Source: an uncultured virus (IMG/VR IMGVR_UViG_3300025728_000011)
Lineage: Duplodnaviria; Heunggongvirae; Uroviricota; Caudoviricetes
Strand: one strand, 5' to 3'
Virus record (IMG/VR): IMGVR_UViG_3300025728_000011
DNA length: 20,000 nucleotides
This document shows, one piece after another, positions 5,783 to 19,187 of this stretch. The notes beneath the pieces are model-generated. The model was given only the letters and a program-made list of their open reading frames with translations, did not search any database and was not told where the DNA came from. Numbering within the stretch: position 1 is the first letter of the stretch; each line of letters begins with the position of its first letter. Made by a program: the position numbers and the translations under genes.

Positions 5783-5824
5783 GTGATCTCAACATTCACC
5801 GGCAGGCTGGTAGGTGGAAGAGGG

Positions 5825-6136
5825 TTAGGGATTCTTGCGGTCTGGCGGGGATGGCGGGAAGCCGAAGTGATGCCGTCGTTTGCCGGTGTAACCGCACTCA
5901 CTGCATCCCGCTGAAGGGCCGCACCCGCAGCCGCCCTCACAGCCGCAGCTGCACCCGGAGCAATCCAAGGTGCACCAGCTTTCTTGCTCTACCTCTCCCT
6001 CTTGGCTGATTGAGTAATTGATGCGCCGATCCAGGCGAAAACCTGTGATTTTCTCGGCTTCCTCATAGGTCGCTGGCACTGAGCGGAAACCGTATTCGGC
6101 TGATGGGTCATCTACAAATCGGCGAACACTTCTCAT
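5825..6136 (-). CDS. Cys-rich putative metal-binding protein
   Basis: CTLDCSGCSCGCEGGCGCGPSAGCSECGYTG. Start at ATG 6136 gives an ATGA overlap with the upstream mini-ORF. Confidence 0.65.
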   Translation of the reverse strand: MRSVRRFVDDPSAEYGFRSVPATYEEAEKITGFRLDRRINYSISQEGEVEQESWCTLDCSGCSCGCEGGCGCGPSAGCSECGYTGKRRHHFGFPPSPPDRKNP

Positions 6137-6198
6137 CGCCGCGGCCCTTTGTAGATGTTCCATGCCATGTAGGCGATTGCGCAGACTGGAATAATCAT
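6133..6198 (-). CDS. 21-aa hydrophobic mini-protein MIIPVCAIAYMAWNIYKGPRR
   Basis: Read manually; ATGA overlaps at both ends fill the gap in the operon exactly. Confidence 0.55.
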   Translation of the reverse strand: MIIPVCAIAYMAWNIYKGPRR

Positions 6199-6362
6199 GA
6201 TTGTCCCCCCGCTTGATATTTGGCCTGGCGCTTCTTCGAGCAGGCCGCGTGACTTCCGTGTGACCTGTGCCGGTTGCAATACTCGCAAGTCGGGTTCAGC
6301 TCAAGGATTGGCGTCGGAGAGCTGTTCCGGCGAACCTCGGCGGTTCGGTAGAGCTTGCTCAT
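6195..6362 (-). CDS. Small Zn-binding-like protein (CEYC..HRSHGSHAAC)
   Basis: Start set at ATG 6362 (MSKLYRT), which overlaps the upstream stop. Confidence 0.65.
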   Translation of the reverse strand: MSKLYRTAEVRRNSSPTPILELNPTCEYCNRHRSHGSHAACSKKRQAKYQAGGQS

Positions 6363-7057
6363 TGATTCAGCTCCTTGACCTTGTCGAGGCAGGCGGTCAT
6401 CTGCGAAAGCGAGGTATAGGCTGCCCAAGCATCGTCATGGCCAGCGAACTGCATGACGATCTTGTATCTACCGTCGAGGGTTTCCAGGGTGTTGAAGCCT
6501 TTCGCGAATGCTTTTGCCGCATCCACCGCTACCGTCGTGGCCGACGAGACGGCGCGAACCTGGCATCCCATGGATTCTGCTTTTGATTTATCAGCTTCAT
6601 TTTCCAGCGGGCGCCAACTACGAAGAGGTTTCGAATAATACTCCCACGCCGCCAGCTCACCCTGCCCACCCTTCAGCCGCTCGGCCAATGCATTGCGCTC
6701 ATCAATCACGGCGTTGTAAAGCTCTTCGAAGCTTTCGGATTTAAGCCGCTCGATTTCCGCCGTCAGCTTGGCGATGGCGGCTTGCGCCTTGTCGTATGCA
6801 GCCTTCAGCGAAGGCCACGATGACTGGTCAGGCTCTTTGGCTTGCAGTTCGGCGAGTTCGGGCGGGGCGGCATTTATGCACTTCGGGCATGTTGGCCGGT
6901 TGCCGCCCCAAAGTTCCTCGGGCGTGTAATCCCCGGCGGCCAATAACTTCTTCTCTTCAGGCGTTGGCGTGCAGCATTGCTGGCGCTCGACGACAGGGGT
7001 GGACGGATTCGATGCAACTATCCACTCAGACTGAGGGACTTCAATTTTACTGCTCAT
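6359..7057 (-). CDS. Hypothetical mosaic early protein with a coiled-coil segment (Ead/Ea22-region type)
   Basis: 232-aa ORF coupled at both ends. Confidence 0.6.
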   Translation of the reverse strand: MSSKIEVPQSEWIVASNPSTPVVERQQCCTPTPEEKKLLAAGDYTPEELWGGNRPTCPKCINAAPPELAELQAKEPDQSSWPSLKAAYDKAQAAIAKLTAEIERLKSESFEELYNAVIDERNALAERLKGGQGELAAWEYYSKPLRSWRPLENEADKSKAESMGCQVRAVSSATTVAVDAAKAFAKGFNTLETLDGRYKIVMQFAGHDDAWAAYTSLSQMTACLDKVKELNQ

Positions 7058-7461
7058 TCGCTTGCTCCCGATTCGGTGGGTTTGAGGGCGGCCACATACT
7101 CCATCGCCAGCGTCCCTACTTGAGAGACGTCAGCGCAGCTTGCGAAGTGTCTCAGCTTGCTTTCGTGTCTCGCATTCCGCTGCTCGGCGGCTGTCAGGCG
7201 CTGAACAATTTCACTCGCAGGCAGAGGTGGTGACGCCAAGAATTCAGAGACTGCTGGCGCGTAGGACGGATTAACAGCCAGCGTTTTCAGGTGCCACAAC
7301 GCAGTCATGCGGTGGTTGTCGAATTGCAGCGCCAAGTCTCGCCAATGCTTCATATCGGCAAGCTCTTCCCGCAGCGCAGCCAGTTTACGTTCGGTGTCAT
7401 ACAGCTTTGCCTCGGCCCTTTCGCAGCGGCCAGACAGACCACCCTCTTCATTCATGCCCAT
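7054..7461 (-). CDS. Hypothetical phage protein
   Basis: 135 aa, GGAGG RBS, coupled to the next gene. Confidence 0.6.
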   Translation of the reverse strand: MGMNEEGGLSGRCERAEAKLYDTERKLAALREELADMKHWRDLALQFDNHRMTALWHLKTLAVNPSYAPAVSEFLASPPLPASEIVQRLTAAEQRNARHESKLRHFASCADVSQVGTLAMEYVAALKPTESGASE

Positions 7462-7493
7462 TTTTCAAACCTCCGATAGTCCGTTATGAAACA

Positions 7494-7805
7494 TCATTCT
7501 TCGTGGCAAACCCTAAGCGCTTCACGCTGATAGGCCTGCTCAAGTTTGCGCGCCACGACTGGCGATACGTCGATTTCGTGGTGCGGTACTTCTAATAAGG
7601 GCCTAGCTTTAGAAGAGCCAAGCGCGTGTAGATGGTGAATCATCAGTGTCAGTGCTTCGCCCTGCTCCTCGATCCCGGCCCATTCCATCAGGTCGGCCAA
7701 GGCCTTCTTGGTGCCGGGTCGCACCTTCAGGCGCAGATCCTCTTCCTGAAGCTTGATGGCCTTCTCGCGGCGTTTCTCGTCTCGCTGCTGCTGGGTCAAA
7801 GCCAT
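7494..7805 (-). CDS. Hypothetical phage protein (basic N-terminus, possible DNA binding)
   Basis: AGGAGG RBS; MALTQQQRDEKRREK...LADLMEWAGIEEQGEALTLMIHH resembles a protein common in Pseudomonas prophages (recognised from memory). Confidence 0.7.
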   Translation of the reverse strand: MALTQQQRDEKRREKAIKLQEEDLRLKVRPGTKKALADLMEWAGIEEQGEALTLMIHHLHALGSSKARPLLEVPHHEIDVSPVVARKLEQAYQREALRVCHEE

Positions 7806-7886
7806 GGACGGCCTCCTTTAGGCCGCTTGGCGGCAAGTGGAATTGTTCGGCCCGCTTGCGGGTGCGGACTGCTGTACTGATGCGTT

Positions 7887-8348
7887 TCATGCTGCTCTCT
7901 TGTTCGTCCAGGCGCCCATGGATTTGAACACCTTGGCCGCCTGCTCTTCGGTTAGGTCGATGGCGTCAGGCACTGCAATCCAGCCGGACCCAATGACGTG
8001 GTTTCGATTGGCGCTGGCGCACAGCTCGGCGTGGTACTGCTCCATGTGCTCGGCCAGGTTGATGACCAAATGCACGCCATCCGTGGTGAACTGAATCGAC
8101 TTGCTGTACTGCTCGCCGGCTGGCGTCTCGCAAAACACGCTGATGTAGATCGTCCAGCGGTGCGCGATGTCGCAGAGCGCATTGGCGACCGGCTCGCTAC
8201 GGATCTGCGTGCAGTTCTTCCAGTGCAGCATGATCTGTCGATCGGGCGGCTCGACATTCGCCACGCAGGCGTAGTTGGTCTTAAGCAGCGCCCTTGCTGC
8301 TCGCTCCATCCGCGCCCTGAAGTTGTGAGGCTTTCTTTTGATAGCCAT
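7887..8348 (-). CDS. Hypothetical phage protein
   Basis: 153 aa, AAGGAG RBS, ends in AA. Confidence 0.7.
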   Translation of the reverse strand: MAIKRKPHNFRARMERAARALLKTNYACVANVEPPDRQIMLHWKNCTQIRSEPVANALCDIAHRWTIYISVFCETPAGEQYSKSIQFTTDGVHLVINLAEHMEQYHAELCASANRNHVIGSGWIAVPDAIDLTEEQAAKVFKSMGAWTNKRAA

Positions 8349-8350
8349 GG

Positions 8351-8566
8351 TTAGCTCCTTGGATCAGCAAGGCACTCAAGCGCGAACTGGACCGCGTAAG
8401 GCGCAGGCCGGTATCCTTTGCCGGGAGCTTCGCAAAGGTAGTAGCGCATCATGCGGGCGCTCACACCGACAAGCTCGGCGCACTTGTTCTGTGTTTCGCC
8501 GGACTTTCTGACCAGCTCGCGTAGGTAGGTGGCATCCGGTTTGTGGTTGCTGGCGTCAGGCTTCAT
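8351..8566 (-). CDS. XRE-type helix-turn-helix protein
   Basis: YLRELVRKSGETQNKCAELVGVSARMMRYYL...PYAVQFALECL; start set at MKPDAS. Confidence 0.75.
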   Translation of the reverse strand: MKPDASNHKPDATYLRELVRKSGETQNKCAELVGVSARMMRYYLCEAPGKGYRPAPYAVQFALECLADPRS

Positions 8567-9272
8567 TCGTCGATCCTTTTTCATTTAGGTAGCGACCCCA
8601 CTGATCGCCGGCGGCGGCAGCAATTCCCGGCCATGTCTTTGAGCGCTCAAGCCAGCGATCTGCGCCGGGTGTAGTTTTCTCTTGCCCGCTGTCGGTCTGG
8701 TTTGACCAGCGAGGGAGAAGCTTGCCGTTGGCCTGAACGCACCACCTAGGCTCAACGTGTTTCGTATGAGTCAGGACAGGAAGCCCCTTGGTCAGCCACC
8801 AACCGGTGCCCTTGCTTGCGTCATCGCCGAACTGATGCGGATGAATTACTTGATCGGGCGGCCGGATCGCCGTGTTGATCCCCGATGGCGCCGGGTTCTC
8901 GATAGCCACAGGGAAAGGCAGCTCGAGCAGAAGCTTGAAGTTCTCGACGTCGGCCGCCTTGGCTGCGCGCCGATCGGCGCCGAATAGCGTCCCCGGCTTA
9001 AGCCGCTGGTGATAGCCGCCTTTGTCCGGGTAGCGTTTAAGGTCTGGATCTTTCAGCGCCCAGACCGATGCGTTATTGAGATATGTGCACATCGGGTGCA
9101 ATACGGCCATATCCCAGCTCATTGCTAATGCCTGCCAGATGTCGCACTGCAAGTGCTTGGGCGAGTCGCCTCGTGACGGTAGAAGGTCGCACGTCCACAC
9201 GTCATGGCCGTGGGCTTCGAACGCTTGCCGTGTTAACTGGCAAGCTGAGTAACCGATCAATACTTTCGACAC
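8556..9272 (-). CDS. Short phage DNA cytosine-methyltransferase-like protein
   Basis: AFEAHGHDVWTCDLLP, WDMAVLHPMCTYL (motif IV-like), AIENP (motif VI), HPHQFGD..SKGT.WW, RSKTWPGIA. GTG start at 9272 follows GGAG. Confidence 0.7.
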   Translation of the reverse strand: MSKVLIGYSACQLTRQAFEAHGHDVWTCDLLPSRGDSPKHLQCDIWQALAMSWDMAVLHPMCTYLNNASVWALKDPDLKRYPDKGGYHQRLKPGTLFGADRRAAKAADVENFKLLLELPFPVAIENPAPSGINTAIRPPDQVIHPHQFGDDASKGTGWWLTKGLPVLTHTKHVEPRWCVQANGKLLPRWSNQTDSGQEKTTPGADRWLERSKTWPGIAAAAGDQWGRYLNEKGSTNEA

Positions 9273-9318
9273 TTTATGTTCTCCGTTTCGCCTCGCCTGA
9301 GTGGCTGGCATGGGTATT

Positions 9319-9355
9319 ACTTTAGGCAATTTATGCCGGCCTGTATATAGGCAAT
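9319..9355 (-). promoter_or_regulatory. Possible internal promoter TATACA-17-TAAAGT with two ATTGCCTA direct repeats
   Basis: AT-rich gap; taggcaat at 9323-9330 and 9348-9355. Confidence 0.4.
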
Positions 9356-9382
9356 CTGTGTATTTCTTGATTTATTTTCAGA

Positions 9383-9904
9383 TCACACTTTCGTGCGATT
9401 CCTGAATTTCGGAAAGTCGATGTCGTAGTCGTCGATGATCCGCCGCAACGTACCGCTACCGATACCCATCTGCTTTTCCACCTGATGGCGCGTCAGCCCG
9501 ACATCGCGCAGGGCGGTGATTCGCTCAATCAGCTTGGCGTCATCGGATCGCGCATTGGGCTTGCCCATGGTGTCAGGCAGGAATTTGAATTCCTCGCGCT
9601 GCGCCATGGTCCACAGCGTGGTTTGCGCCATGCCTACGGCTGCCGACACTTCGCGGCACGTCATGGTCTTGGCCATTTCCGCGATCAGGATTGCTCGCTC
9701 TTTGCTGCGCTGGTATCGCACTCCCTGCTGATGGATGCCCTTGGTCTTTTTCTCGCCAGGCTCTGGATGCTTACGCGGCGGCTTCGGCTTGAATTCGAAG
9801 CCGGCCACTTCTTCGACCTTGCCGCCTGATTGGAAGAAAGCTTCTTGAGCCGCCTGAAGTCGCGCCTGCCGGTGGGTGCTAATTAGGATCTGATTATCGA
9901 TCAT
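9383..9904 (-). CDS. Putative DNA-binding protein with two HTH-like segments
   Basis: MTCREVSAAVGMAQTTLWTM and LTRHQVEKQMGIGSGTLRRI. Confidence 0.65.
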   Translation of the reverse strand: MIDNQILISTHRQARLQAAQEAFFQSGGKVEEVAGFEFKPKPPRKHPEPGEKKTKGIHQQGVRYQRSKERAILIAEMAKTMTCREVSAAVGMAQTTLWTMAQREEFKFLPDTMGKPNARSDDAKLIERITALRDVGLTRHQVEKQMGIGSGTLRRIIDDYDIDFPKFRNRTKV

Positions 9905-10668
9905 GCCATCTTCGCTCTGAGCTTGGTTTCGTATTGGTCAACCAGCAGCTTGAATTGCCACAAGTCTTCCTCCAGCTTTTCGATGTAGTCGTCATCGCGC
10001 TTGAACTCTTGAAGCCAGAGCTGGCGCCCTACAGGCTTCAGCAGCGGGCAGTACATCCCGATATGCCACCACTTGCGCTCTGCGATCCACATGCACCCCT
10101 GCACCTGGTCGATCACTCCGCTGGCATCATTGTCGATATGAAAGGCGCGAAGCTTTTCAGGGGCAAGGAAGCACTTGTATTCAGAACCGCCATCAGCGCC
10201 GATAAACCCATCCGCGCTGGCCCCGAAGGCACCATCATCAGTCTTTATCAGTCCGACCTGCGTAACGATCAGGCCGGTCTGGATCTCGTGCTCCATGCGC
10301 GCCTCAGGCTCCAGTTCGTGGCCTCGGCGCATCTGCCAGGTTTCGAAGCCGTTATCGAGTGGCTTCCCGCCGATCCTCTCAACTGCCAACTGGAATGCAT
10401 AGTCGAGCGCAGCCGATGAAGGCTCGCCGACCGACTCGCCATCAAGCGCACGCTGTACAACTTCGGCCCGAGGTGCTGCCTTGTAGCCAGCTAGGTCGCG
10501 AGACTTGGCTTCACTATGGCCGGCAAGCATTGCATCGACGTAAGTACGCTGCTGAACGGTTAGTCCGTTCACCTTGGATCGAGCAGTAGTAAACATGCTG
10601 GCCGTGATGCATCCGGCTCGCTCTTGGAGCCAGATGTCTGAACCCTGAGTGCAATTGACGACGATCAT
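9901..10668 (-). CDS. YqaJ/lambda-exonuclease family recombination nuclease
   Basis: QGSDIWLQERAGCITAS, MRRGHELEPEAR, GASADG..G.EYKC and QVQGCMW motifs. Confidence 0.9.
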   Translation of the reverse strand: MIVVNCTQGSDIWLQERAGCITASMFTTARSKVNGLTVQQRTYVDAMLAGHSEAKSRDLAGYKAAPRAEVVQRALDGESVGEPSSAALDYAFQLAVERIGGKPLDNGFETWQMRRGHELEPEARMEHEIQTGLIVTQVGLIKTDDGAFGASADGFIGADGGSEYKCFLAPEKLRAFHIDNDASGVIDQVQGCMWIAERKWWHIGMYCPLLKPVGRQLWLQEFKRDDDYIEKLEEDLWQFKLLVDQYETKLRAKMA

Positions 10669-11396
10669 TGCTGAGCCTCCAGTTTTGCCTTCTGCTTAGT
10701 CACGGCAACCTTTACCGAGTCATAGCCAGCAACGTCGCCAGCCTCTTTAAGCGCTTTTACGGCTGCCTGCCACACGTCCTTAAGTTCGTCGGCGGTGGTT
10801 GTGCCTTCAACCTGGGCAATGATGCCTGCCACCACTTCTGCCCGATCCTCCGCGCTGTCCGATCCATCCGCCGTCTGCGCGTCATCGTCCTGAGCATCGC
10901 TGGTGGTGATGTTCAGCAGGGCGCACATCACATAACGCTTGCCGTAAGTGGTGGACGAGCCGACCGACTGAACGTCGTTGCGACCTTTGCCGACATCCAG
11001 CGGCAGGCGCATCGTGGTTTGCTCGCGATGGCCGCCGCGGTGCATCAAGATCCCCGTCACCTCGATGGCCTTTTCGGCGTTTTCAACCTTGAAGGTTATC
11101 GCGAATCCGTGCTGCTGCATGATCGGCTTGATGGTCCGGGTGATGTCGTCCAGGGTGGCGTAGGAGTTGCCCGTGTGCAGGTTGATAGCCCCCTCGAAGA
11201 CGGTCGGGATATCGCACTGCATCTGCGCCATGCCGGCGTTAAACTGCTTCTCTGCTGCCTTGTCTTGCAGACGCTCGTGCATCTCAAGCAATTTTTCAAG
11301 CTTCACAACATCAACAGATGGGTCGCTTGCAGCTCGGCTGATGGTCGAAAGAACACTATCGTTTGTTTCGGTCTGTATTGTTTGAATCTCGTTCAT
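10665..11396 (-). CDS. erf: ERF family single-strand annealing protein
   Basis: YATLDDITRTIKPIMQQHG, ILMHRGGH, QSVGSSTTYGKRY, DDDA. Confidence 0.9.
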   Translation of the reverse strand: MNEIQTIQTETNDSVLSTISRAASDPSVDVVKLEKLLEMHERLQDKAAEKQFNAGMAQMQCDIPTVFEGAINLHTGNSYATLDDITRTIKPIMQQHGFAITFKVENAEKAIEVTGILMHRGGHREQTTMRLPLDVGKGRNDVQSVGSSTTYGKRYVMCALLNITTSDAQDDDAQTADGSDSAEDRAEVVAGIIAQVEGTTTADELKDVWQAAVKALKEAGDVAGYDSVKVAVTKQKAKLEAQQ

Positions 11397-11400
11397 GGTC

Positions 11401-12036
11401 TTATTCCTGATATTTAAAGAAGGAAGAACAGTTTTCGCGTGGCGGCTTGTCGCTGTATCCGCTGCACCATCGGCTTATTGTCGCGCTACTAACACCCAAT
11501 TCCTTTGCCGCTTCGGTTGAACTTTCAAATTCAACTCCATCAATTACCCAGATTTTAGATCGCCTGGTATTTTTTGACTGTTCAAATCTAGTTGCCCACC
11601 TGCAATTCTCTTTGTTGTAGCCAAGGTCGTTATCTCGGCGGTCCATCGTGTATTTAATCGATGGCCTAGCCCCCATGTCCCGGTAAAAATTTTCAAATGA
11701 GTCTCGCCACTCATCGCAAACCTCTATCCCGCGCCCACCATAATTTGAGTATCCTGGGTTGTCTTGGTTGTGACAGCGAGAAAGCATGTTCTTCCAGATT
11801 GAGAATTCAGTTGTTCCCGTCATGCCATGGGTAGTACATCGTTCTATATTTGACGATGAAACTCCGCACCCGCACGATCTAGACAATCCTGATTTAAGCG
11901 AACCTCCGTTAATAACGGTCAGGTTTCCGCAATCACAAATACAATTCCATCTGATCTTTTTATGCTGTCGCTCTGGGTTCTCAGAAACAACAACGATCAT
12001 TCCAAATCTCATGCCCGTGATATCAATAAATTTCAT
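11401..12036 (-). CDS. Free-standing HNH-type homing endonuclease with a C-terminal NUMOD1-like HTH
   Basis: DITGMRFG..WNCICDCG..SCGC..HGM..W..MLSRC..YGGRGIEVC.EW..FENFYRDMG.RP..TMDRRDND.GY..ENCRWAT..Q..N, then FESSTEAAKELGVSSATISRWC. Visibly AT-richer than its neighbours. Confidence 0.8.
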   Translation of the reverse strand: MKFIDITGMRFGMIVVVSENPERQHKKIRWNCICDCGNLTVINGGSLKSGLSRSCGCGVSSSNIERCTTHGMTGTTEFSIWKNMLSRCHNQDNPGYSNYGGRGIEVCDEWRDSFENFYRDMGARPSIKYTMDRRDNDLGYNKENCRWATRFEQSKNTRRSKIWVIDGVEFESSTEAAKELGVSSATISRWCSGYSDKPPRENCSSFFKYQE

Positions 12037-12049
12037 TTGTTACGCCCAC

Positions 12050-12182
12050 AAAAAAAGCTTTGAATTGCACCGGTGAGAATCCTGGGAAGGCTCGGATCGA
12101 CGGCTAGTCAACCAACCCAGAAACGGTGCAAATCAAAGCTTTATCAGCCGTCGACCCTAATTCTGCTTCGCCTTCTCACGGG
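12050..12182 (-). ncRNA. Structured RNA element, copy A (leader of the HNH gene)
   Basis: Four helices: 12054-72/12124-42 (18/19), 12073-79/12173-79, 12080-86/12116-22, 12094-105/12146-57. Homologous to copy B. Confidence 0.75.
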
Positions 12183-12217
12183 CTACGCATGCAGAACTTT
12201 AATCTATTCTGCCTACT

Positions 12218-13408
12218 TTAGAAAGTTATTGTTACGTTCGGCACTTCGCCGCGGGCGATCTTCAGGACGATGGCCTTGGCCAGTTCCTCGGAGACGTTCA
12301 TCGACATGATTGCCTGCTTGGCTTCGCCCAGGATCTTGGACTTGTGCGCTACGTCGGCTTGGCGGGCTTTCTGCTGGCGAATGACTTCCGCTGCCTCAGC
12401 CTCTTGTCGGGCCTGCTCATCAAGGCGCGCCTTCTCTACTGCCGCTGCTTGCGCTTTTGCAGCATTGATTCTGTATTGTTCTGCGCGCTGCTCTGTAGCA
12501 ATGCGAGCCGCTTCAGCGTCAGCGATCGCCTGATCATGAAGCTGCTGATCACGTATCTGTTGCTGAGTTGCACGCTGCTCGGCCGCCAACTGATCGGCCT
12601 TTGCCTGAATCGCCAGGCGCTCAGACTGCTCAGCCTTCCATTTCAATTCCAGTTCACGTTTCTCGGCGGCGTCCTTTGCATCTTTCTCTCGCTGGGCTAC
12701 AGCTTCGCGCTCGAGCTTTGCTGCCAGATCGGCATCGGCCTTGGCGCGCTCTTCGGCTTCTCGGGCAATCTGTGCCTCGCGGTCACGCTGAGCCTGAGCT
12801 TCTGACTCGGCGCGTAAGCGGATCAGTTCGGCCTGTTCTGCTTCGTATTGCTGGCGAGCGGTTAGAGCCGCGCGCAGCTTGACCAGCGTGGACTCCTTGG
12901 CTCGGGCGGCTTCGGTTTCGAACTCTTCCCAGTGATCGCCCATCTGCACGGCTTCGACCGATGCGATGGATTCCAGCAGCACCGAGGCGCTGACGTCGGC
13001 CAGGTCGATGCAGAAGTCATGGATGGCCTGGACTGCATCAACATGCCGATCCTTGCGAGCCTGCTGTTCGGTTTCCCAGTCGTTTAGCGGCTTGCGGGTG
13101 GTGTCGCGAAGGGCGTCCATCTTCTTGACCCAAGCTGCCAGCTCGACCTCGATCACCTTCGGCATTTCTTTCAGCTTTCGCAGGTAGTCACGCCCAGGCT
13201 TTTCGACCGCCGCCTTGGAGCTACTGACCTTGGCTGCCAGGGATGCGATTCGAGCCCGGCCTTTCGCAGTGGTCAGGTCCGGCACTTCGCCGGTTACTTC
13301 CTTCTCTACAGCAGCGAAAAACTTGTCCAGACCTCCGGCGACATAAATGGTTGGCGCGTTGTCGGCGCTGATGTCGTCGATGGTGATGACTTGCTTTGCT
13401 TCTGACAT
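12218..13408 (-). CDS. Long coiled-coil phage protein (type often labelled TolA-like)
   Basis: VPDLTTAKGRARIASLAAKV N-domain, Ala/Glu/Gln/Arg heptads, C-terminal AKAIVLKIARGEVPNVTITF. Start set at ATG 13408 after GGGAG. Confidence 0.8.
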   Translation of the reverse strand: MSEAKQVITIDDISADNAPTIYVAGGLDKFFAAVEKEVTGEVPDLTTAKGRARIASLAAKVSSSKAAVEKPGRDYLRKLKEMPKVIEVELAAWVKKMDALRDTTRKPLNDWETEQQARKDRHVDAVQAIHDFCIDLADVSASVLLESIASVEAVQMGDHWEEFETEAARAKESTLVKLRAALTARQQYEAEQAELIRLRAESEAQAQRDREAQIAREAEERAKADADLAAKLEREAVAQREKDAKDAAEKRELELKWKAEQSERLAIQAKADQLAAEQRATQQQIRDQQLHDQAIADAEAARIATEQRAEQYRINAAKAQAAAVEKARLDEQARQEAEAAEVIRQQKARQADVAHKSKILGEAKQAIMSMNVSEELAKAIVLKIARGEVPNVTITF

Positions 13409-13423
13409 TTCCCTACTCCCACG

Positions 13424-13560
13424 AAAAAGCGCTTTGGGGTTGCCCGGTGGAACTCTGTGAATAACCTGGATCGACGGCTTGTCGGTCAGACACAGAACGG
13501 GCAACTCCAAAACGCTTTGATAGCCGTCGATCCTGATAATTTGCTTTGGCGTTCCACGGC
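13424..13560 (-). ncRNA. Structured RNA element, copy B (leader of the coiled-coil gene)
   Basis: Four helices: 13426-46/13498-518 (19/21), 13447-53/13551-57, 13453-59/13491-97, 13468-79/13522-33 (12/12). Confidence 0.75.
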
Positions 13561-13573
13561 CTTGGCGAGGTGG

Positions 13574-13601
13574 ATAATACCCTAAAACTTAACTTCCTCA
13601 A
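13574..13601 (-). promoter_or_regulatory. Sigma70-like promoter TTGAGG-16-TATTAT driving RNA copy B
   Basis: Seen directly. Copy A has TAAAGT (12196-12201) at the same distance from its first helix strand. Confidence 0.55.
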
Positions 13602-13610
13602 CCTGTTTGT

Positions 13611-13727
13611 TCATCCAGTGATATGCCCAGCCAGGGCGCTGACGAGCATGAAGCCGGTGCAGGCGAGAAGCGTGATTGCGCTCCCTCTCCAATAGGCGTA
13701 TCGCTTGGCTTTCTGGTAGCTGCTCAT
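13611..13727 (-). CDS. 38-aa membrane mini-protein MSSYQKAKRYAYWRGSAITLLACTGFMLVSALAGHITG
   Basis: Read manually; basic N-terminus plus one TM helix. Confidence 0.6.
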   Translation of the reverse strand: MSSYQKAKRYAYWRGSAITLLACTGFMLVSALAGHITG

Positions 13728-14095
13728 GACCAAGGCCTCATGCTCTGCATTACCAGGTCGTGCAGCGCCTTCCCGTTACGACTGATGCGCTCACCGCGCA
13801 ACTGTCATTTCTTCGTGCTTGGCCAGCAGTCAATCATTCGGCCATCCGGCAGCGTCAGAACAACATGGAAGCCGTTGTTGTGCTTCTTGTGGGCGATCCC
13901 GGTCCGAGACAGCCACGCATCAAAGCGCAGCATGGCTTCGGCCTTCTGGCGCTTCTTGTGGCCTTCTGGGTTGGACTCGCTACCTTCCCCGCCGCAGTTT
14001 CGGCAGCAGCGCCGATAACCAACGTCCTCGCCGATGTATTCGCAGCAACTCATGCAGTGGCTTCCGTCCGCTACATTGTCTTCGTAGAAGCTCAT
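13724..14095 (-). pseudogene. Cys-rich protein gene with an in-frame TGA at 13805-13807 (probable TGG>TGA)
   Basis: ORF stops at CWPSTKK*, but the frame stays open for 26 more codons to a TGA that overlaps the next ATG. Confidence 0.55.
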
Positions 14096-14331
14096 GGCGA
14101 TTCATACTCCAGATAGAAGCTGTCAGGCTCATGCATCACCTGGGCGTCGTCGCGGATATACCGGAAATCAGTTATCCACTTGACCTCCAATTTCCCGCAA
14201 ACATCAATTCGGCAAATGCCGCTTTCAACATCGATATCGACTATCGGCCACCACCAGTCTTTGCCGTTTTCGCTGCCCCACAATGGCTGTGGCAGAGAAT
14301 TGATAAGCTCCATGTTTAGTAGGTCGGTCAT
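14092..14331 (-). CDS. Hypothetical phage protein
   Basis: 79 aa, coupled at both ends. Confidence 0.65.
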   Translation of the reverse strand: MTDLLNMELINSLPQPLWGSENGKDWWWPIVDIDVESGICRIDVCGKLEVKWITDFRYIRDDAQVMHEPDSFYLEYESP

Positions 14332-14528
14332 AGCATCACCAGCCGGCCGCGAAGGTCATAGATGAAATCTCCGAACATCAATGCGCCCGCATCGCTTGGC
14401 GGCGTCTGCCATGCTCCTTTAATCGGATTTGGCAGGTCGCACACCCGAGTTTCGCGCGGCAGATTGAAGGCCGCCGCCAGGCTTTCCACTTGCTCGTCGA
14501 TGAGCGATTTGACGATTGGAGTATTCAT
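14328..14528 (-). CDS. Hypothetical phage protein
   Basis: 66 aa, AGGAGG RBS, coupled. Confidence 0.6.
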   Translation of the reverse strand: MNTPIVKSLIDEQVESLAAAFNLPRETRVCDLPNPIKGAWQTPPSDAGALMFGDFIYDLRGRLVML

Positions 14529-15130
14529 TTGGCCTCCTGCTTGCGATAGCCAGCGTCGTAGAGGGCTCTCATCTCGGCGAGATTGACGCCGAAGCCGACC
14601 TTGGCCTTCAACAGTTCAGCCATCTCGTAGACGGCCTTATTGGATTCGTCCTCCGCGATCTGCTCCGGCGTGCGTATTGGCCGGAAGAAAGCCATGCGCA
14701 GGCAGGTTTCAGATGATTCATGGCCGTCACGACGAAACCATGTTTCCTCTCCGCTATGCCCGAGGATCTCAACCTTCACCCAGCCATCCTGATTAGGATT
14801 CCACTCGCATACCGTGCCGACTGGCGGCTTACCCTCTCCGCTCCATTCAGCTCTTGAAGGGTGATCAAATCCGCATTTGACGCAGAAGTCTGAATCGGCA
14901 ATCCAGTAATGATCGCAAACTTTTTCAGCCTTCAGCGCATCGACTGCGGCTTGCCATTGGGAGCGATCAACAACCTCTTCTGCGTAGCTATCGCACAGTG
15001 TGAATCTTTGTGCCGTGTAGGAAGCTGATCCAGCCGGATGCAGCGACCCATCACAAGCTTGGCCAACTTCGAACACATACGGCCAAGGCCAGCTCACCAA
15101 CTCTCGCGCCAAAATATCAACAAGCTTCAT
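14525..15130 (-). CDS. Hypothetical phage protein (W.GEG.PPVG..CE ... FRPIRTPEQI ... LYDAGYRK type)
   Basis: Motifs recognised as recurrent in phage early proteins; coupled. Confidence 0.7.
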   Translation of the reverse strand: MKLVDILARELVSWPWPYVFEVGQACDGSLHPAGSASYTAQRFTLCDSYAEEVVDRSQWQAAVDALKAEKVCDHYWIADSDFCVKCGFDHPSRAEWSGEGKPPVGTVCEWNPNQDGWVKVEILGHSGEETWFRRDGHESSETCLRMAFFRPIRTPEQIAEDESNKAVYEMAELLKAKVGFGVNLAEMRALYDAGYRKQEAK

Positions 15131-15351
15131 GCCTTCACCCCCATTTTCCGCATCAATTCGATTTGCTCGCGCTCAATGATCTTTCTGAGCCGTGCGACGT
15201 AGTGCTGGTGCAGATGGATATCGATCGCCCCGAGCGTGTAGGCCATTTCTATGGCCATGGATGTTTCGCCGTGCAGCATTCCCGAACTTGACGTGACCAG
15301 TGACGCTAGTCGCGATTCGATGATGTCTACCGCCTGATCGTGCCTGTTCAT
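15127..15351 (-). CDS. Hypothetical phage protein (MNRHDQAV...)
   Basis: Start set at ATG 15351 after GGAGG. Confidence 0.65.
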   Translation of the reverse strand: MNRHDQAVDIIESRLASLVTSSSGMLHGETSMAIEMAYTLGAIDIHLHQHYVARLRKIIEREQIELMRKMGVKA

Positions 15352-15500
15352 TCGTCCTCCGGTTCCGCGTCGTCGTTCTTTGGGCAGGCCGCTACGTGCC
15401 GCATCAGCTTGCTGGTGGATCCGAAGATCCCGAAGCAGTACGGGCATTCGTGCTCTGCGTCTGGGTCGAGCTGTCGATCGCCGATATAAATCCCGCTCAC
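15348..15500 (-). CDS. 50-aa single zinc-finger protein (C2HC)
   Basis: Read manually: GGAGG RBS, GTG start, MSGIYIGDRQLDPDAEHECPYCFGIFGSTSKLMRHVAACPKNDDAEPEDE, ATGA overlap with the next gene. Confidence 0.7.
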   Translation of the reverse strand: MSGIYIGDRQLDPDAEHECPYCFGIFGSTSKLMRHVAACPKNDDAEPEDE

Positions 15501-15522
15501 TCTAATTCCTCCAGATCATCTT

Positions 15523-15918
15523 TTAGGCGAAGAGATAGCCGATGCCGGCAAGGATAAGGCCGATACACATAAGCCCTACGGCGGCGAAGAGAACCCCACC
15601 AACTGCGCCCATGAATGACCCTCCGAGATCTCTTTCGCTTCGATAGCCGGCGATTGCCCCCGCGATCAGTGCGATGAACAAGATGACGATACAGCCTTTG
15701 ATCAGATACGTTTCGCCTTCAGTGGTTGGCATCGGGTAAAGCGTTTCAACGCATGAGGCGTATTCATGCTTATCAGCTACCGATGCTTGAGCTACTTCAA
15801 ACCGGCTTTCGAACGCTGTGCAGCGATCAACTCTGGCGCGGTGTGCTGCTTCCTGAGCCATCGCGTTGTTTGCGGCGCTTGCTGCAGTAAGTCCTGCGTT
15901 AACGGCGGTCATGCTCAT
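15523..15918 (-). CDS. Membrane protein with two C-terminal TM helices
   Basis: GAGGAG RBS; two hydrophobic segments. Confidence 0.7.
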   Translation of the reverse strand: MSMTAVNAGLTAASAANNAMAQEAAHRARVDRCTAFESRFEVAQASVADKHEYASCVETLYPMPTTEGETYLIKGCIVILFIALIAGAIAGYRSERDLGGSFMGAVGGVLFAAVGLMCIGLILAGIGYLFA

Positions 15919-15990
15919 CTATTCTTGCTCCTCGGTTTATGCCCAATGATTCTCTCTAAGTCCCCGGTCGCTTACCCAGCGAGCTAAGGG

Positions 15991-16146
15991 TTATTGGTCG
16001 CTGCGGCGCCGACCCTTGTTGTCGCGCTTCAATTGCGCGGAGTCTAGCTCGTCGGCGCTGAAGTACCAGACCAGCATGCCGGTACCGACGATGGCGGCGA
16101 TGATGACCAGCGCCAGCAGTGACAGCGGTAGTAAATGGGCAAGCAT
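15991..16146 (-). CDS. 51-aa membrane mini-protein MLAHLLPLSLLALVIIAAIVGTGMLVWYFS...
   Basis: Read manually; AAGGAG RBS, TM helix and charged tail. Confidence 0.65.
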   Translation of the reverse strand: MLAHLLPLSLLALVIIAAIVGTGMLVWYFSADELDSAQLKRDNKGRRRSDQ

Positions 16147-16164
16147 GGCGGCGACTCCTTTGTC

Positions 16165-16341
16165 TCAAATGGACCGGGCGGCCTGCTCGTTCAGCAGATT
16201 GGCTTCGGCCTCGCTGGGTTTGCGTGGCTTGCCGAGAAGCTTTGGCAGCAACACGCGCTGGGTGTAACTCTGGCCGATGGCAATTTCGTACAGGCTGCCG
16301 AGGGCGTGCAGGAAAACTAGTTTGCTGATGTGAAGCTTCAT
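16165..16341 (-). CDS. 58-aa first gene of the leftward operon (MKLHISKL...)
   Basis: AAGGAG RBS before ATG 16341; lies directly after the leftward promoter. Confidence 0.6.
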   Translation of the reverse strand: MKLHISKLVFLHALGSLYEIAIGQSYTQRVLLPKLLGKPRKPSEAEANLLNEQAARSI

Positions 16342-16414
16342 TGCGGTGACTCCTTGGGTGAGTTGCTTCCTTTGTTTGCAGGTTCTCTTAAGATCCTGCG
16401 CTTCTATGGATCTA

Positions 16415-16503: not shown

Positions 16504-16722
16504 ATGAACAAAGCAGACGTAATCGCCTTTTTCGGCAACCAGAAGCAGACGGCAATTGCTCTGGGGATCAGTGAGGCGGCGGTAAGCCAGTGGGGCGACG
16601 TGGTTCCAGGGCCGCGCCAGGGTCATGTGCGCCTGGCCATGGAAGCCGAAGCGAACCGCCGCGCAGATGAGGCGGCTAAAGAAACCAAGAAGGCCGCACG
16701 CAAAGCGCGAAAGGCCGCATAG
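16504..16722 (+). CDS. cro: Cro-like repressor (P22 Cro/DicC type)
   Basis: MNKADVIAFFGNQKQTAIALGISEAAVSQWGDVVP. Confidence 0.85.
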   Translation: MNKADVIAFFGNQKQTAIALGISEAAVSQWGDVVPGPRQGHVRLAMEAEANRRADEAAKETKKAARKARKAA

Positions 16723-17589: not shown

Positions 17590-17717
17590 CCGCGCAAAAT
17601 ATCGCACCACGAAATGAGAATGGTGATTCTGTGGAGCGCGCGACAACGCATCAAGCAAAAAAGAACGCGGTTTCTCCGCGGTCCGCTTCCATGACCGAAA
17701 TGATCGTAGCCGCATGA
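17586..17717 (+). CDS. 43-aa ORF linking the operon to tnpB
   Basis: Read manually: MTAQNIAPRN...SMTEMIVAA, with ATGA overlaps at both ends. Confidence 0.5.
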   Translation: MTAQNIAPRNENGDSVERATTHQAKKNAVSPRSASMTEMIVAA

Positions 17718-18832
17718 ATCACACAAAGACCCTAAAGGTTCGAGTTCGAGATAAGCACGCCCCGCTCCTACGGGAGATGGCGCGCAGTGTCAACTATGTC
17801 TGGAACTATCTGAACGAACTCAGCCATCGCTCGATCCGCGAGCGCGGGGTCTTTCTATCGGCCTTCGACATGCACCCTTATACCAAGGGTGCCGGTAAAG
17901 AGCTGAACTTGCACAGTCATACCTTGCAGTGCGTGGCAGCCGAGTACGCTGCTCGACGCAAGCAGTTTCGAAAGCCCCGGCTCAACTGGCGTAAGTCCGG
18001 CGGCGTTCGTCGGTCTCTCGGCTGGATTCCGATCAATACGGGCGCAGCCAGCTGGAAAAACGGGCAAGTGTTTCACAACGGCCACCACTTCACCGTCTGG
18101 GACAGTTATGGGCTTGGCCAGTATCGCTTTCGCTCTGGTAGCTTCAGTGAGGATTCCCGTGGCCGCTGGTATTTCAATATAGCGGTTGATGTGCCGGAGT
18201 TTGTCGGTCCGCTTCAGCAGACGGAATCCATTGGCATCGACCTTGGCCTCAAGGAGGTGGCCACCTGCAGTGATGGCTTTACCAGGCTGGAGAACGCTAG
18301 GTTCTACCGGGGTCTTGAGCCAGCGTTGGCTATCGCCCAGCGGGCCAACAAGAAAGCGCGCATACGAGCCATTCACGCCAAGATCGCCAACCGGCGAAAA
18401 GAAGCACTGCACCAATTCAGCCGTTCGCTTCTCAAGCGCTGCGGAATGATTATTGTGGGCGATGTCAGCCCGCAGAAACTCGTTAAAACCACCATGGCCA
18501 AGTCGGTGCTTGATGCCGGCTGGGGCCAACTGAAGACGATGCTGGACTATAAATGCGCTCACGCAGGCATTGTCTTCAAAGTAGTAAACGAGGCGTACAC
18601 CACCCAAACCTGCTCGTGCTGCGGAGCAATCTCTAGCAGTAGTCCGAAAGGTAGAGCCGGCTTGCGAATAAGAGAATGGACGTGTGAGTGCGGTGTGACT
18701 CACGACCGCGATGTGAACGCGGCACGCAATATTCTCGCGCTCGGACTGAGCGTCCCGCAGGGGGAATCCACGTCATTTAGGACGGGGAGGAAGTCAAAAA
18801 TCCGCACTGAAGGCCATAGCCGAGACAGCTAA
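17714..18832 (+). CDS. tnpB: RNA-guided endonuclease TnpB family, solo (no TnpA), rearranged RuvC-II
   Basis: RuvC-I IGIDLGLK; IIVGDV at the usual RuvC-II position; VNEAYTTQTCSCCG; zinc finger ..WTCECG; RuvC-III HDRDVNAARNI. Confidence 0.92.
   Translation: MNHTKTLKVRVRDKHAPLLREMARSVNYVWNYLNELSHRSIRERGVFLSAFDMHPYTKGAGKELNLHSHTLQCVAAEYAARRKQFRKPRLNWRKSGGVRRSLGWIPINTGAASWKNGQVFHNGHHFTVWDSYGLGQYRFRSGSFSEDSRGRWYFNIAVDVPEFVGPLQQTESIGIDLGLKEVATCSDGFTRLENARFYRGLEPALAIAQRANKKARIRAIHAKIANRRKEALHQFSRSLLKRCGMIIVGDVSPQKLVKTTMAKSVLDAGWGQLKTMLDYKCAHAGIVFKVVNEAYTTQTCSCCGAISSSSPKGRAGLRIREWTCECGVTHDRDVNAARNILALGLSVPQGESTSFRTGRKSKIRTEGHSRDS
18700..18817 (+). ncRNA. Predicted omegaRNA 3' part plus guide (scaffold end TCAA 18794-18797; guide from 18798; 5' boundary uncertain)
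   Basis: GGAATCC-acgtc-atttag-gacggggagg-aagTCAA hairpin and end motif typical of tnpB element right ends. Confidence 0.7.
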
Positions 18833-18942: not shown

Positions 18943-18968
18943 GCCTGCATCTCAAAAAGGAAGTGATC

Positions 18969-19187
18969 ATGAAGTCAAAAGCAGTGATTGAGTTTTTCGG
19001 TAGCGTTCGCCTCACGGCTGAGGCTCTTGGCATGAGCGCCGCCGCTGTTTACCTGTGGAAGGATGAGGTTCCAAAGACGCGCCAGGCTCATGTAGAGGCC
19101 GCTACGAATGGGAAAATTAAGCGTGATAAGCCGGTATACGGCGTGAAGCTGAAGGCCGTCGACTCCGTGGCCCTTGGCGAAGATTGA
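18969..19187 (+). CDS. Second Cro-like HTH protein
   Basis: MKSKAVIEFFGSVRLTAEALGMSAAAVYLWKDEVPKTRQAHV...ATNGKIK; aligns by eye with 16504-16722. Confidence 0.85.
   Translation: MKSKAVIEFFGSVRLTAEALGMSAAAVYLWKDEVPKTRQAHVEAATNGKIKRDKPVYGVKLKAVDSVALGED

What the first reader, a model, noticed from the sequence alone, without database searches (positions are those of the whole stretch)
12050..13601. Two homologous, covarying four-helix RNA cassettes, each with its own promoter, in the recombination operon
Seen: intergenic segments 12050-12182 (A) and 13424-13560 (B) have diverged in sequence but keep the same four helices. On the minus strand the order is Y1-W1-X1-Z1-W2-Z2-Y2-X2, then a U run, GUGGG and the start codon. 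X is 19-21 bp (A aaagcuuugauuugcaccg, B aaagcguuuuggaguugcccg). Z is 7 bp (uucuggg/cccagga vs uucugug/cacagag). Y is 7 bp (gugagaa/uucucac vs guggaac/guuccac). W is 12 bp and almost invariant (ggRucgacggcu/agccgucgaucc). Changes in X, Y and Z are largely compensatory, and most imperfect pairs are G-U on the minus strand, so the functional molecule is probably minus-strand RNA. Both copies have a -10 box (TAAAGT, TATTAT) separated from Y1 by exactly 16 nt. The fold is a long X+Z hairpin whose bulge (Y2) and apical loop (W2) are complementary to an upstream leader. Established: bulge-plus-loop recognition of an upstream target is how P4 CI, P1 c4 and N15 CA antisense RNAs act. Inference: this is a mobile promoter-RNA regulatory cassette (antisense/attenuator switch or double pseudoknot). 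I cannot assign it to a named family.
Basis: partly seen in the sequence, partly recalled or inferred. Interest (0 to 1): 0.85.

Follow-up and report, generated by a model that had tools for sequence, protein, structure and literature searches.

The report
Self-pairing terminator leader RNAs in phage
This Pseudomonas phage puts the same small folded RNA switch, each copy with its own promoter, in front of two neighbouring genes; the RNA can fold either into a stop signal or into a read-through shape, it matches no catalogued RNA family, and it probably lets the gene fire briefly and then shuts it off.

Summary
Confirmed. A and B are two members of an uncatalogued phage leader-RNA family: 60 distinct copies in 29 clusters, plus 8 found later, in Pseudomonas, Pantoea and Erwinia phages. 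No Rfam match.

All helices covary. W, called almost invariant, changes completely between lineages and stays complementary.

Folding models give a two-state switch. W then Y dominate the growing transcript; the terminator X+Z wins only at full length, or early if the leader is blocked (28 of 29 versus 5 of 29).

Best reading (0.5): an attenuator whose released hairpin binds new leaders and forces termination, giving a pulse. It works like P4 CI/seqA but is not C4/CI: no downstream target, no cloverleaf, no RNase P signature. Trans action is inferred; no expression data.

First genes downstream: nucleases 24, recombination 16, replication 7 of 60. 30 of 31 near-complete carriers lack a tyrosine integrase. 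This scan noted the same layout before on other DNA.

The parts
13574..13601 (-). Promoter B: -35 TTGAGG (13601-13596), 16-nt spacer, -10 TATTAT (13579-13574), 16 nt before Y1
   Evidence: 9/12; family 21 of 29 clusters >=8/12 against 7 of 566 control positions; not tested experimentally
13548..13561 (-). Cassette B, P0 hairpin (GGC/GCC) with Y1 GUGGAAC (13557-13551) in its loop
13522..13533 (-). Cassette B, W1, single-stranded after an A-rich linker
13424..13518 (-). Cassette B, X+Z hairpin with W2 (13479-13468) in the tip, Y2 bulge (13453-13447) and U tract (13428-13424); predicted intrinsic terminator
12218..13408 (-). 396-aa protein of unknown function (phrog_1376), first gene after B; usually the gene just before erf
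   Evidence: no Pfam hit
12196..12223 (-). Promoter A: -35 TTCTAA (12223-12218, overlapping the upstream stop codon), 16-nt spacer, -10 TAAAGT (12201-12196)
   Evidence: 7/12; both boxes kept while the spacer changes in L036 and L041
12170..12183 (-). Cassette A, P0 hairpin (GCC/GGC) with Y1 GUGAGAA (12179-12173) in its loop
12146..12157 (-). Cassette A, W1
12050..12142 (-). Cassette A, X+Z hairpin with W2 (12105-12094), Y2 bulge (12079-12073), X2 (12072-12054) and 7-U tract; predicted intrinsic terminator
11401..12036 (-). 211-aa HNH endonuclease (phrog_374), first gene after A; A plus HNH are inserted between the phrog_1376 stop codon and the erf ribosome site
10665..11396 (-). Erf-like ssDNA-annealing protein (phrog_155), downstream in the same direction
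9901..10668 (-). Recombination exonuclease (phrog_149), downstream in the same direction

Best explanation
Each cassette is a self-limiting transcription attenuator. (1) A host sigma70-type promoter fires into the leader [promoter conservation shown; firing inferred]. (2) As W2 and then Y2 emerge they pair back with W1 and Y1. This traps X1/Z1 inside a closed loop, so the terminator cannot fold in time and polymerase reads into the gene [shown in nested folding models; kinetics inferred]. (3) The finished leader relaxes to the more stable X+Z hairpin, which leaves W2 and Y2 unpaired [computed]. (4) That hairpin, from terminated or trimmed transcripts, binds Y1 and W1 of new transcripts. With the leader occupied, X+Z folds on time and transcription stops at the U tract [consequence computed; trans binding and trimming inferred by analogy with P4 CI]. 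The result is a burst of nuclease, recombination or replication proteins early in infection, then feedback shut-off that scales with genome copy number. Y and W act as the address, so co-resident cassettes with different Y are controlled largely separately. Steps 1-3 (a two-state terminator leader) are about 0.85 likely; the whole scheme including step 4 is about 0.5.
For: Covariation: 98.4% of 509 cells paired; 21 of 30 pairs with two-sided changes (P0 3 of 3, Y 4 of 7, W 8 of 11, inner X 6 of 8); sliding the partners drops pairing to 22-43%. Terminator geometry: stem ends within 1 nt of the U tract in 29 of 29 clusters, >=3 G-C among the last 4 pairs in 25 of 29, >=6 U in the 8-nt tail in 29 of 29. 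Switch: P(W) is about 1 from W2 until X2 is nearly complete in A and B; full-length OFF beats ON (A -49.1 vs -44.7; B -51.8 vs -42.4 kcal/mol); OFF is lower in 26 of 29, median -7.9; inner X forms with 8 nt of X2 out in 5 of 29 free leaders and 28 of 29 blocked leaders. X = OFF is also indicated by copies whose start codon abuts the U tract with a purine-rich ribosome-site-like stretch inside X2 (L319, L317, L321, L343, L350). Antisense design: W2 and Y2 are the unpaired parts of the OFF fold and Y1 sits in a loop. Cognate leader-tip duplexes average -24.6 against -15.1 kcal/mol for non-cognate, and beat >=99% of shuffles in 25 of 29. Co-resident copies differ in Y in the window (cross-pairing -2.7/-3.0 vs -7.6/-9.0), in 6 of 6 other two-copy genomes and in AH02. 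Precedent: P4 CI pairs with seqA/seqC to cause termination (PMC4825925, PMC10111431, passages).
Against: No transcript, 3' end or processing site has been observed. ViennaRNA scores only nested folds, so a fully folded double pseudoknot was never scored, and equilibrium folding of prefixes only stands in for kinetics. A terminated RNA still carries its own leader, which could cover W2/Y2 in cis; no RNase P signature to remove it was found (no CCA in 0 of 29; X1 starts AAA/AG, not GGW). A and B share W, so they may cross-react. W is weak or broken in 4 of 29 clusters, L319 has no detectable promoter, and OFF is not favoured in 3 of 29. The two-copy cases are only about three independent events.
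Confidence: 0.5

Rival explanations
1. Cis-only kinetic attenuator: W/Y against X/Z simply splits transcripts into a fixed, or protein- or temperature-tuned, fraction that reads through. The short RNA is a by-product.
For: All folding results fit this equally well; no processing signature; T4 homing-endonuclease genes are throttled by cis terminators and hairpins (PMC2988022, passages).
Against: Ordinary antiterminators overlap the terminator stem, whereas W2 and Y2 lie outside it and stay exposed in the OFF fold. Showing Y1 in a conserved loop (P0 >=3 bp in 52 of 60 vs 1 of 27 chance hits) and wholesale turnover of W and Y suit recognition between molecules.
Confidence: 0.25
2. Opposite sign: the terminator folds by default, and W and Y form as tertiary (double-pseudoknot) contacts, or the short RNA activates read-through or translation in trans, as Gifsy-1 IsrK does.
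For: The four helices use separate bases and could coexist; OFF is the global minimum; short IsrK activates its own long transcript in trans (PMC4825925, passages).
Against: W completes about 25 nt before X2 starts and dominates those prefixes. A 12-bp W and a 19-21-bp X crossing each other would need the strand to be threaded through a loop (inference).
Confidence: 0.12
3. Processing or stability element (an RNase III-type long stem) or a self-cleaving ribozyme that frees the downstream mRNA.
For: The hairpin has about 36 base pairs with bulges (1058 pairs over 29 clusters); crossing helices are typical of small ribozymes (recalled).
Against: The U tract abuts the stem in 29 of 29; few invariant positions, most of them paired or in the U tract; no Rfam ribozyme match; a cleavage role does not need swappable W/Y pairs.
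Confidence: 0.08
4. DNA-level element (ssDNA hairpin, protein-binding inverted repeats or recombination site) tied to the neighbouring recombination genes.
For: It lies before recombination and replication genes; Y uses only Watson-Crick pairs.
Against: G-U 100 against A-C 17, strand asymmetry in 27 of 29, a conserved promoter at fixed distance and a U tract; W sequence is not conserved.
Confidence: 0.03

Closest known systems
Phage P4 CI RNA with seqA/seqC (Rfam C4 RF01695 and IsrK detect relatives)
   Same: A constitutive promoter gives one transcript that holds both an upstream target and a hairpin RNA complementary to it; the outcome is premature termination (PMC4825925, PMC10111431, PMC3632133, passages).
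   Different: No Rfam score; no downstream target; the hairpin is itself the U-tailed terminator directly before the gene; carriers mostly lack an integrase, so lysogenic immunity is not the evident purpose.
Phage P1/P7 C4 antisense RNA and the c4-a1b1 motif
   Same: Two recognition elements (a', b') and a variable specificity element; often upstream of anti-repressor genes (2 of 60 copies here, and first or second gene after 2 of the 6 second copies).
   Different: C4 has three stem-loops, is cut by RNase P at a GGW start and targets ribosome-binding sites (PMC5320573, passages); c4-a1b1 rows are about 53 nt (PMC2864571, supplement rows). Here there is one long irregular hairpin, one 3-bp target hairpin plus a single-stranded W1, and no GGW start.
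Gifsy-1 IsrK
   Same: A short terminated RNA and a long read-through mRNA come from one promoter, and the short form acts on the long form.
   Different: IsrK activates translation; no Rfam match; here the modelled effect of blocking the leader is termination.
Antisense attenuators of plasmid rep genes (pT181, pIP501) and IncI/IncB pseudoknot-activated rep leaders (recalled; no paper read)
   Same: A nascent leader folds ON unless an antisense RNA intercepts it; feedback on replication genes.
   Different: Those antisense RNAs come from the opposite strand and a second promoter; here regulator and target are parts of one transcript.
T4-family homing-endonuclease control hairpins (I-TevI, segB, mobE)
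   Same: RNA structure or terminators limit nuclease expression (PMC2988022, passages).
   Different: Those are simple cis hairpins bypassed by a late promoter, with no long-range loop/bulge pairing.

Membership tests
C4 / CI antisense RNA (RF01695; c4-2; IsrK) | Scores against the Rfam models | tested here: not met
   No such family at E<=1 over the window, at E<=10 over each cassette, at gathering score in 19 loci or at E<=1 in 18 loci
C4 / CI antisense RNA | Three stem-loops | tested here: not met
   One long irregular hairpin in all 19 rows; only the L317/L321 type branches at the tip
C4 / CI antisense RNA | Upstream target in the same transcript, complementary to a loop and a bulge | tested here: met
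   Y and W covary
C4 / CI antisense RNA | Second, downstream target (a2/b2, seqC) | tested here: not met
   No Y1 copy in the 400 nt downstream in 29 of 29 clusters (190 nt for L338); the W window scan showed no consistent site but is noisy; no further exact W1 site in the window or G003
C4 / CI antisense RNA | RNase P processing at a GGW start | tested here: inconclusive
   Sequence signature absent (X1 starts with GG in 0 of 29, CCA at the base in 0 of 29); cleavage itself not testable
C4 / CI antisense RNA | Acts in trans to repress | not testable with these tools
   Needs a two-plasmid assay
C4 / CI antisense RNA | Serves lysogenic immunity of a temperate element | tested here: inconclusive
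   30 of 31 near-complete carriers lack PF00589; 0 of 5 have PF07508 or PF13614; other carrier states are not excluded
Intrinsic terminator | G-C-rich stem base directly followed by a U tract | tested here: met
   unusually large loop region; the simple scan does not list these sites
Intrinsic terminator | Transcripts end at the U tract | not testable with these tools
   Needs Term-seq or in vitro transcription
Small self-cleaving ribozymes | Family model match and invariant catalytic core | tested here: not met
   cleavage not tested

The most novel reading that the evidence does not exclude
A widespread, uncatalogued class of one-transcript RNA timers. A 150-nt leader folds ON while it is made, flips to its own terminator afterwards, and then silences later transcripts that carry the same two-part address. 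Phages without an integrase may use it instead of a protein repressor to pulse recombination, replication and nuclease genes and to sense genome copy number or co-infection by kin; homing endonucleases hijack it as a portable promoter. The natural W/Y variants would be a ready-made set of orthogonal, protein-free feedback parts.
Probability: 0.4. Interest if true: 0.82.

Novelty: new variant of a known kind. Interest (0 to 1): 0.66.

Why it matters
It is a strongly covarying RNA family missing from Rfam and present in cultured phages (Orisa01-03, Orimi01, HU1, AH02, PdC23, PEp14), so it can be tested at once. If the trans step holds, it extends P4/P1-type RNA control from immunity of temperate elements to timing of gene expression in mostly integrase-less phages. 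It would also explain how free-standing nucleases arrive with their own self-limiting expression unit, and supply compact feedback switches with natural address variants.

Tried and rejected
First viral pattern: only 8 of 63 loci were true. Genome samples: BLAST of B in 401 Pseudomonas genomes gave 3 short 23-27-nt matches only (not inspected further). Covariance models found 0 of 151 (family), 0 of 151 (genus) and 0 of 151 (class), with only about 20 candidates scored per genome and no positive control, so this means 'not found in those searched'. Plasmids: no match. The third weak repeat at 11718-11744 is not a cassette. The opposite-strand hit G543:29612-29733 is an ordinary terminator. 'HNH-specific element' was rejected: 36 of 60 copies precede other genes, and of 59 relatives of the window's HNH only the two closest showed a cassette in the motif-limited scan. 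The Aca-bound leader motifs (PMC13551039, abstract and outline only) were not pursued. Literature searches that found no description of this element; the library lacks most subscription papers, and the supplement of PMC5737381 that describes c4-2 could not be read, so an earlier unpublished-in-Rfam description is not excluded.

Full report
CONTEXT. The window is part of a Pseudomonas-type tailed phage: baseplate and lysis genes on the left, a leftward early operon (about 5800-16400) with Erf and exonuclease genes, and Cro-like genes on the right. No whole genome is held. Cassette B precedes a 396-aa phrog_1376 gene; cassette A precedes a 211-aa HNH endonuclease, followed by erf and the exonuclease.

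OBSERVATION. The four helices are present as described (coordinates under parts). Minus-strand folds have z of -2.9 and -4.6. A scan for the crossing layout finds only these two sites in the window and none in 60 resampled windows. The model R2 finds only these two strong hits in the window.

FAMILY. Pattern scans of viral and metagenome contigs, a protein-anchored search and BLAST gave 87 distinct candidate cores. Sixty had an X stem of 18-27 pairs and a leader of 24-37 nt and were kept; 27 were chance matches and served as controls. The 60 form 29 clusters at 85% identity. Eight more came later: six second copies found by the model in whole virus records and copies in Pantoea phage PdC23 and Erwinia phage PEp14. 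Named carriers also include Pseudomonas phages Orisa01-03, Orimi01, HU1 and AH02.

ASCERTAINMENT. The patterns demanded Y complementarity and a U run, so those hits cannot count for Y. Sixteen copies were found without that demand (L064, L193, L266, L268, L327, L333, L334, L335, L453-L458, L461, L462) and all 16 have an exact 7-nt Y1/Y2 match, with seven different Y sequences (L453 and L457 read by eye and confirmed). P0, W outside its first class, X, Z and the promoter were never demanded.

COVARIATION. On 17 well-aligned copies (chosen for similar length, so not the whole set) 98.4% of 509 cells pair and 21 of 30 pairs show two-sided changes; slid controls give 22-43%. A rougher alignment of 19 gave 79.2% and 38 of 44. 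These counts do not correct for relatedness. P0 has >=3 pairs in 52 of 60 true copies and 1 of 27 chance hits. W falls into unrelated sequence classes (for example GGAUCGACGGC, UGCCGGGGA, UUUGGACUGAGGCUA, UGGGUGUUAGCGAGG, GAUACGCUGGC, GGAUCGAGGG), each matched by its own tip; cognate duplexes average -24.6 against -15.1 kcal/mol, are best or within 1 kcal of best in 20 of 29, and beat >=99% of shuffles in 25 of 29. A sigma70-like promoter 13-19 nt before Y1 scores >=8/12 in 21 of 29 against 7 of 566 control positions. G-U pairs outnumber A-C mismatches 100 to 17.

MECHANISM. Y and W nest with each other, X and Z nest with each other, and the two sets cross. In prefix folding of A and B, W forms with probability near 1 as soon as W2 is out, Y joins, and both persist until X2 is nearly complete; at full length X+Z wins. 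Across clusters the leader pairs with the tip in 20-26 of 29 at the intermediate lengths and in 1 of 29 at full length. Forcing the leader unpaired lets inner X form early in 28 of 29 instead of 5 of 29. The stem abuts a U tract in 29 of 29. In A and B the ribosome-site-like GUGGG lies after the U tract, so X can only act by termination; in L319 and the L317 type the start codon abuts the U tract and X2 holds the purine-rich stretch, so X would also block translation. X+Z is therefore the OFF state and W+Y the ON state. What blocks the leader in vivo is not shown. The best candidate is the hairpin itself, because its only exposed parts are the complements of the leader, and because P4 CI works this way on seqA (PMC4825925, PMC10111431; passages read). 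Against this, no trimming signature was found and the models cannot score pseudoknots.

GENES AND MOBILITY. First genes after the 60 copies, counted by hand (a few assigned by likeness to a scanned neighbour): nucleases 24 (HNH families phrog_953, 374, 99, 59, 14314 and one endonuclease VII-like), Erf/RecT/RecE 10, phrog_1376 6, replication initiators 7, anti-repressor-like 2, other or unknown 11. Many nuclease copies are close relatives, so the share of nucleases is inflated. Of 13 loci with the phrog_1376 gene, 6 have a cassette and 7 have a different small hairpin; different cassette classes alternate at the same site. A plus HNH sits between the phrog_1376 stop codon and the erf ribosome site, which relatives have side by side. 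In AH02 an HNH gene with its own cassette is followed by the 3' half of a second cassette. Co-resident copies differ in Y in the window, in 6 of 6 other two-copy records and in AH02, but this is about three independent events.

LIFESTYLE. Thirty of 31 near-complete carriers lack a tyrosine integrase (PEp14 is the exception), while 3 of 3 near-complete cassette-free relatives have one. Orisa and Orimi phages were predicted virulent (PMC11256456, passages: the three temperate ones named are others). Shared ancestry confounds this, but it argues against lysogenic immunity as the purpose.

COMPARISON. No Rfam family matches. It works like P4 CI/seqA and P1 C4 in logic but fails their structural tests (membership table). 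Papers seen: PMC2864571 (passages, supplement rows), PMC3632133, PMC4825925, PMC10111431, PMC11256456, PMC5320573, PMC8198154, PMC5737381 and PMC2988022 (passages), PMC13551039 (abstract, outline). The plasmid attenuators are recalled. Notes of this scan describe the same layout on other phages; I did not check them, no look-alike sequence was indexed, and they are not support.

VERDICT. A real, uncatalogued two-state terminator leader RNA; a new variant of antisense-controlled attenuation, with the trans step untested. Interest 0.66.

Noticed in passing
window 17714-18832 (+): 372-aa TnpB-like protein (OrfB_IS605 and Cas12f1-like TNB domains) sitting between two related Cro-like genes (16504-16722 and 18963-19187, both phrog_409); no gene of this size and kind appears in the ORF list of the close relative G003.
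   Followed up: no
L186-L190, L192, L197, just before the phrog_1376 start codon: Cassette-free relatives carry a conserved small GC-rich hairpin directly before the ribosome site instead; three of these records have an integrase.
   Followed up: partly
L036:1808-2440 and L342: The HNH gene after cassette A is broken (114-aa first piece) while the cassette stays intact, suggesting the cassette is kept for the downstream erf/exonuclease genes.
   Followed up: no
L335:2997-3085 (phage AH02): 3' half of a second cassette after an HNH gene that has its own full cassette; its W2 and Y2 have no matching leader nearby.
   Followed up: partly
L317, L321, L343, L350: AT-rich copies with a branched tip and a start codon abutting the U tract, ahead of a replication initiator and DnaB-like helicase; probably another host group.
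   Followed up: partly
L459 (G543:29612-29733), L283, L358: Plain terminators in some of these contigs end in the same U-run-(G/A)UGGG tail as the cassettes.
   Followed up: no
L333:3164-3316 (phage HU1): The cassette precedes only a 51-aa HNH-type N-terminal fragment.
   Followed up: no
L385, L395, L405: Three related 113-118-aa genes with no PHROG match follow a cassette subtype with a longer P0 and a short leader.
   Followed up: no
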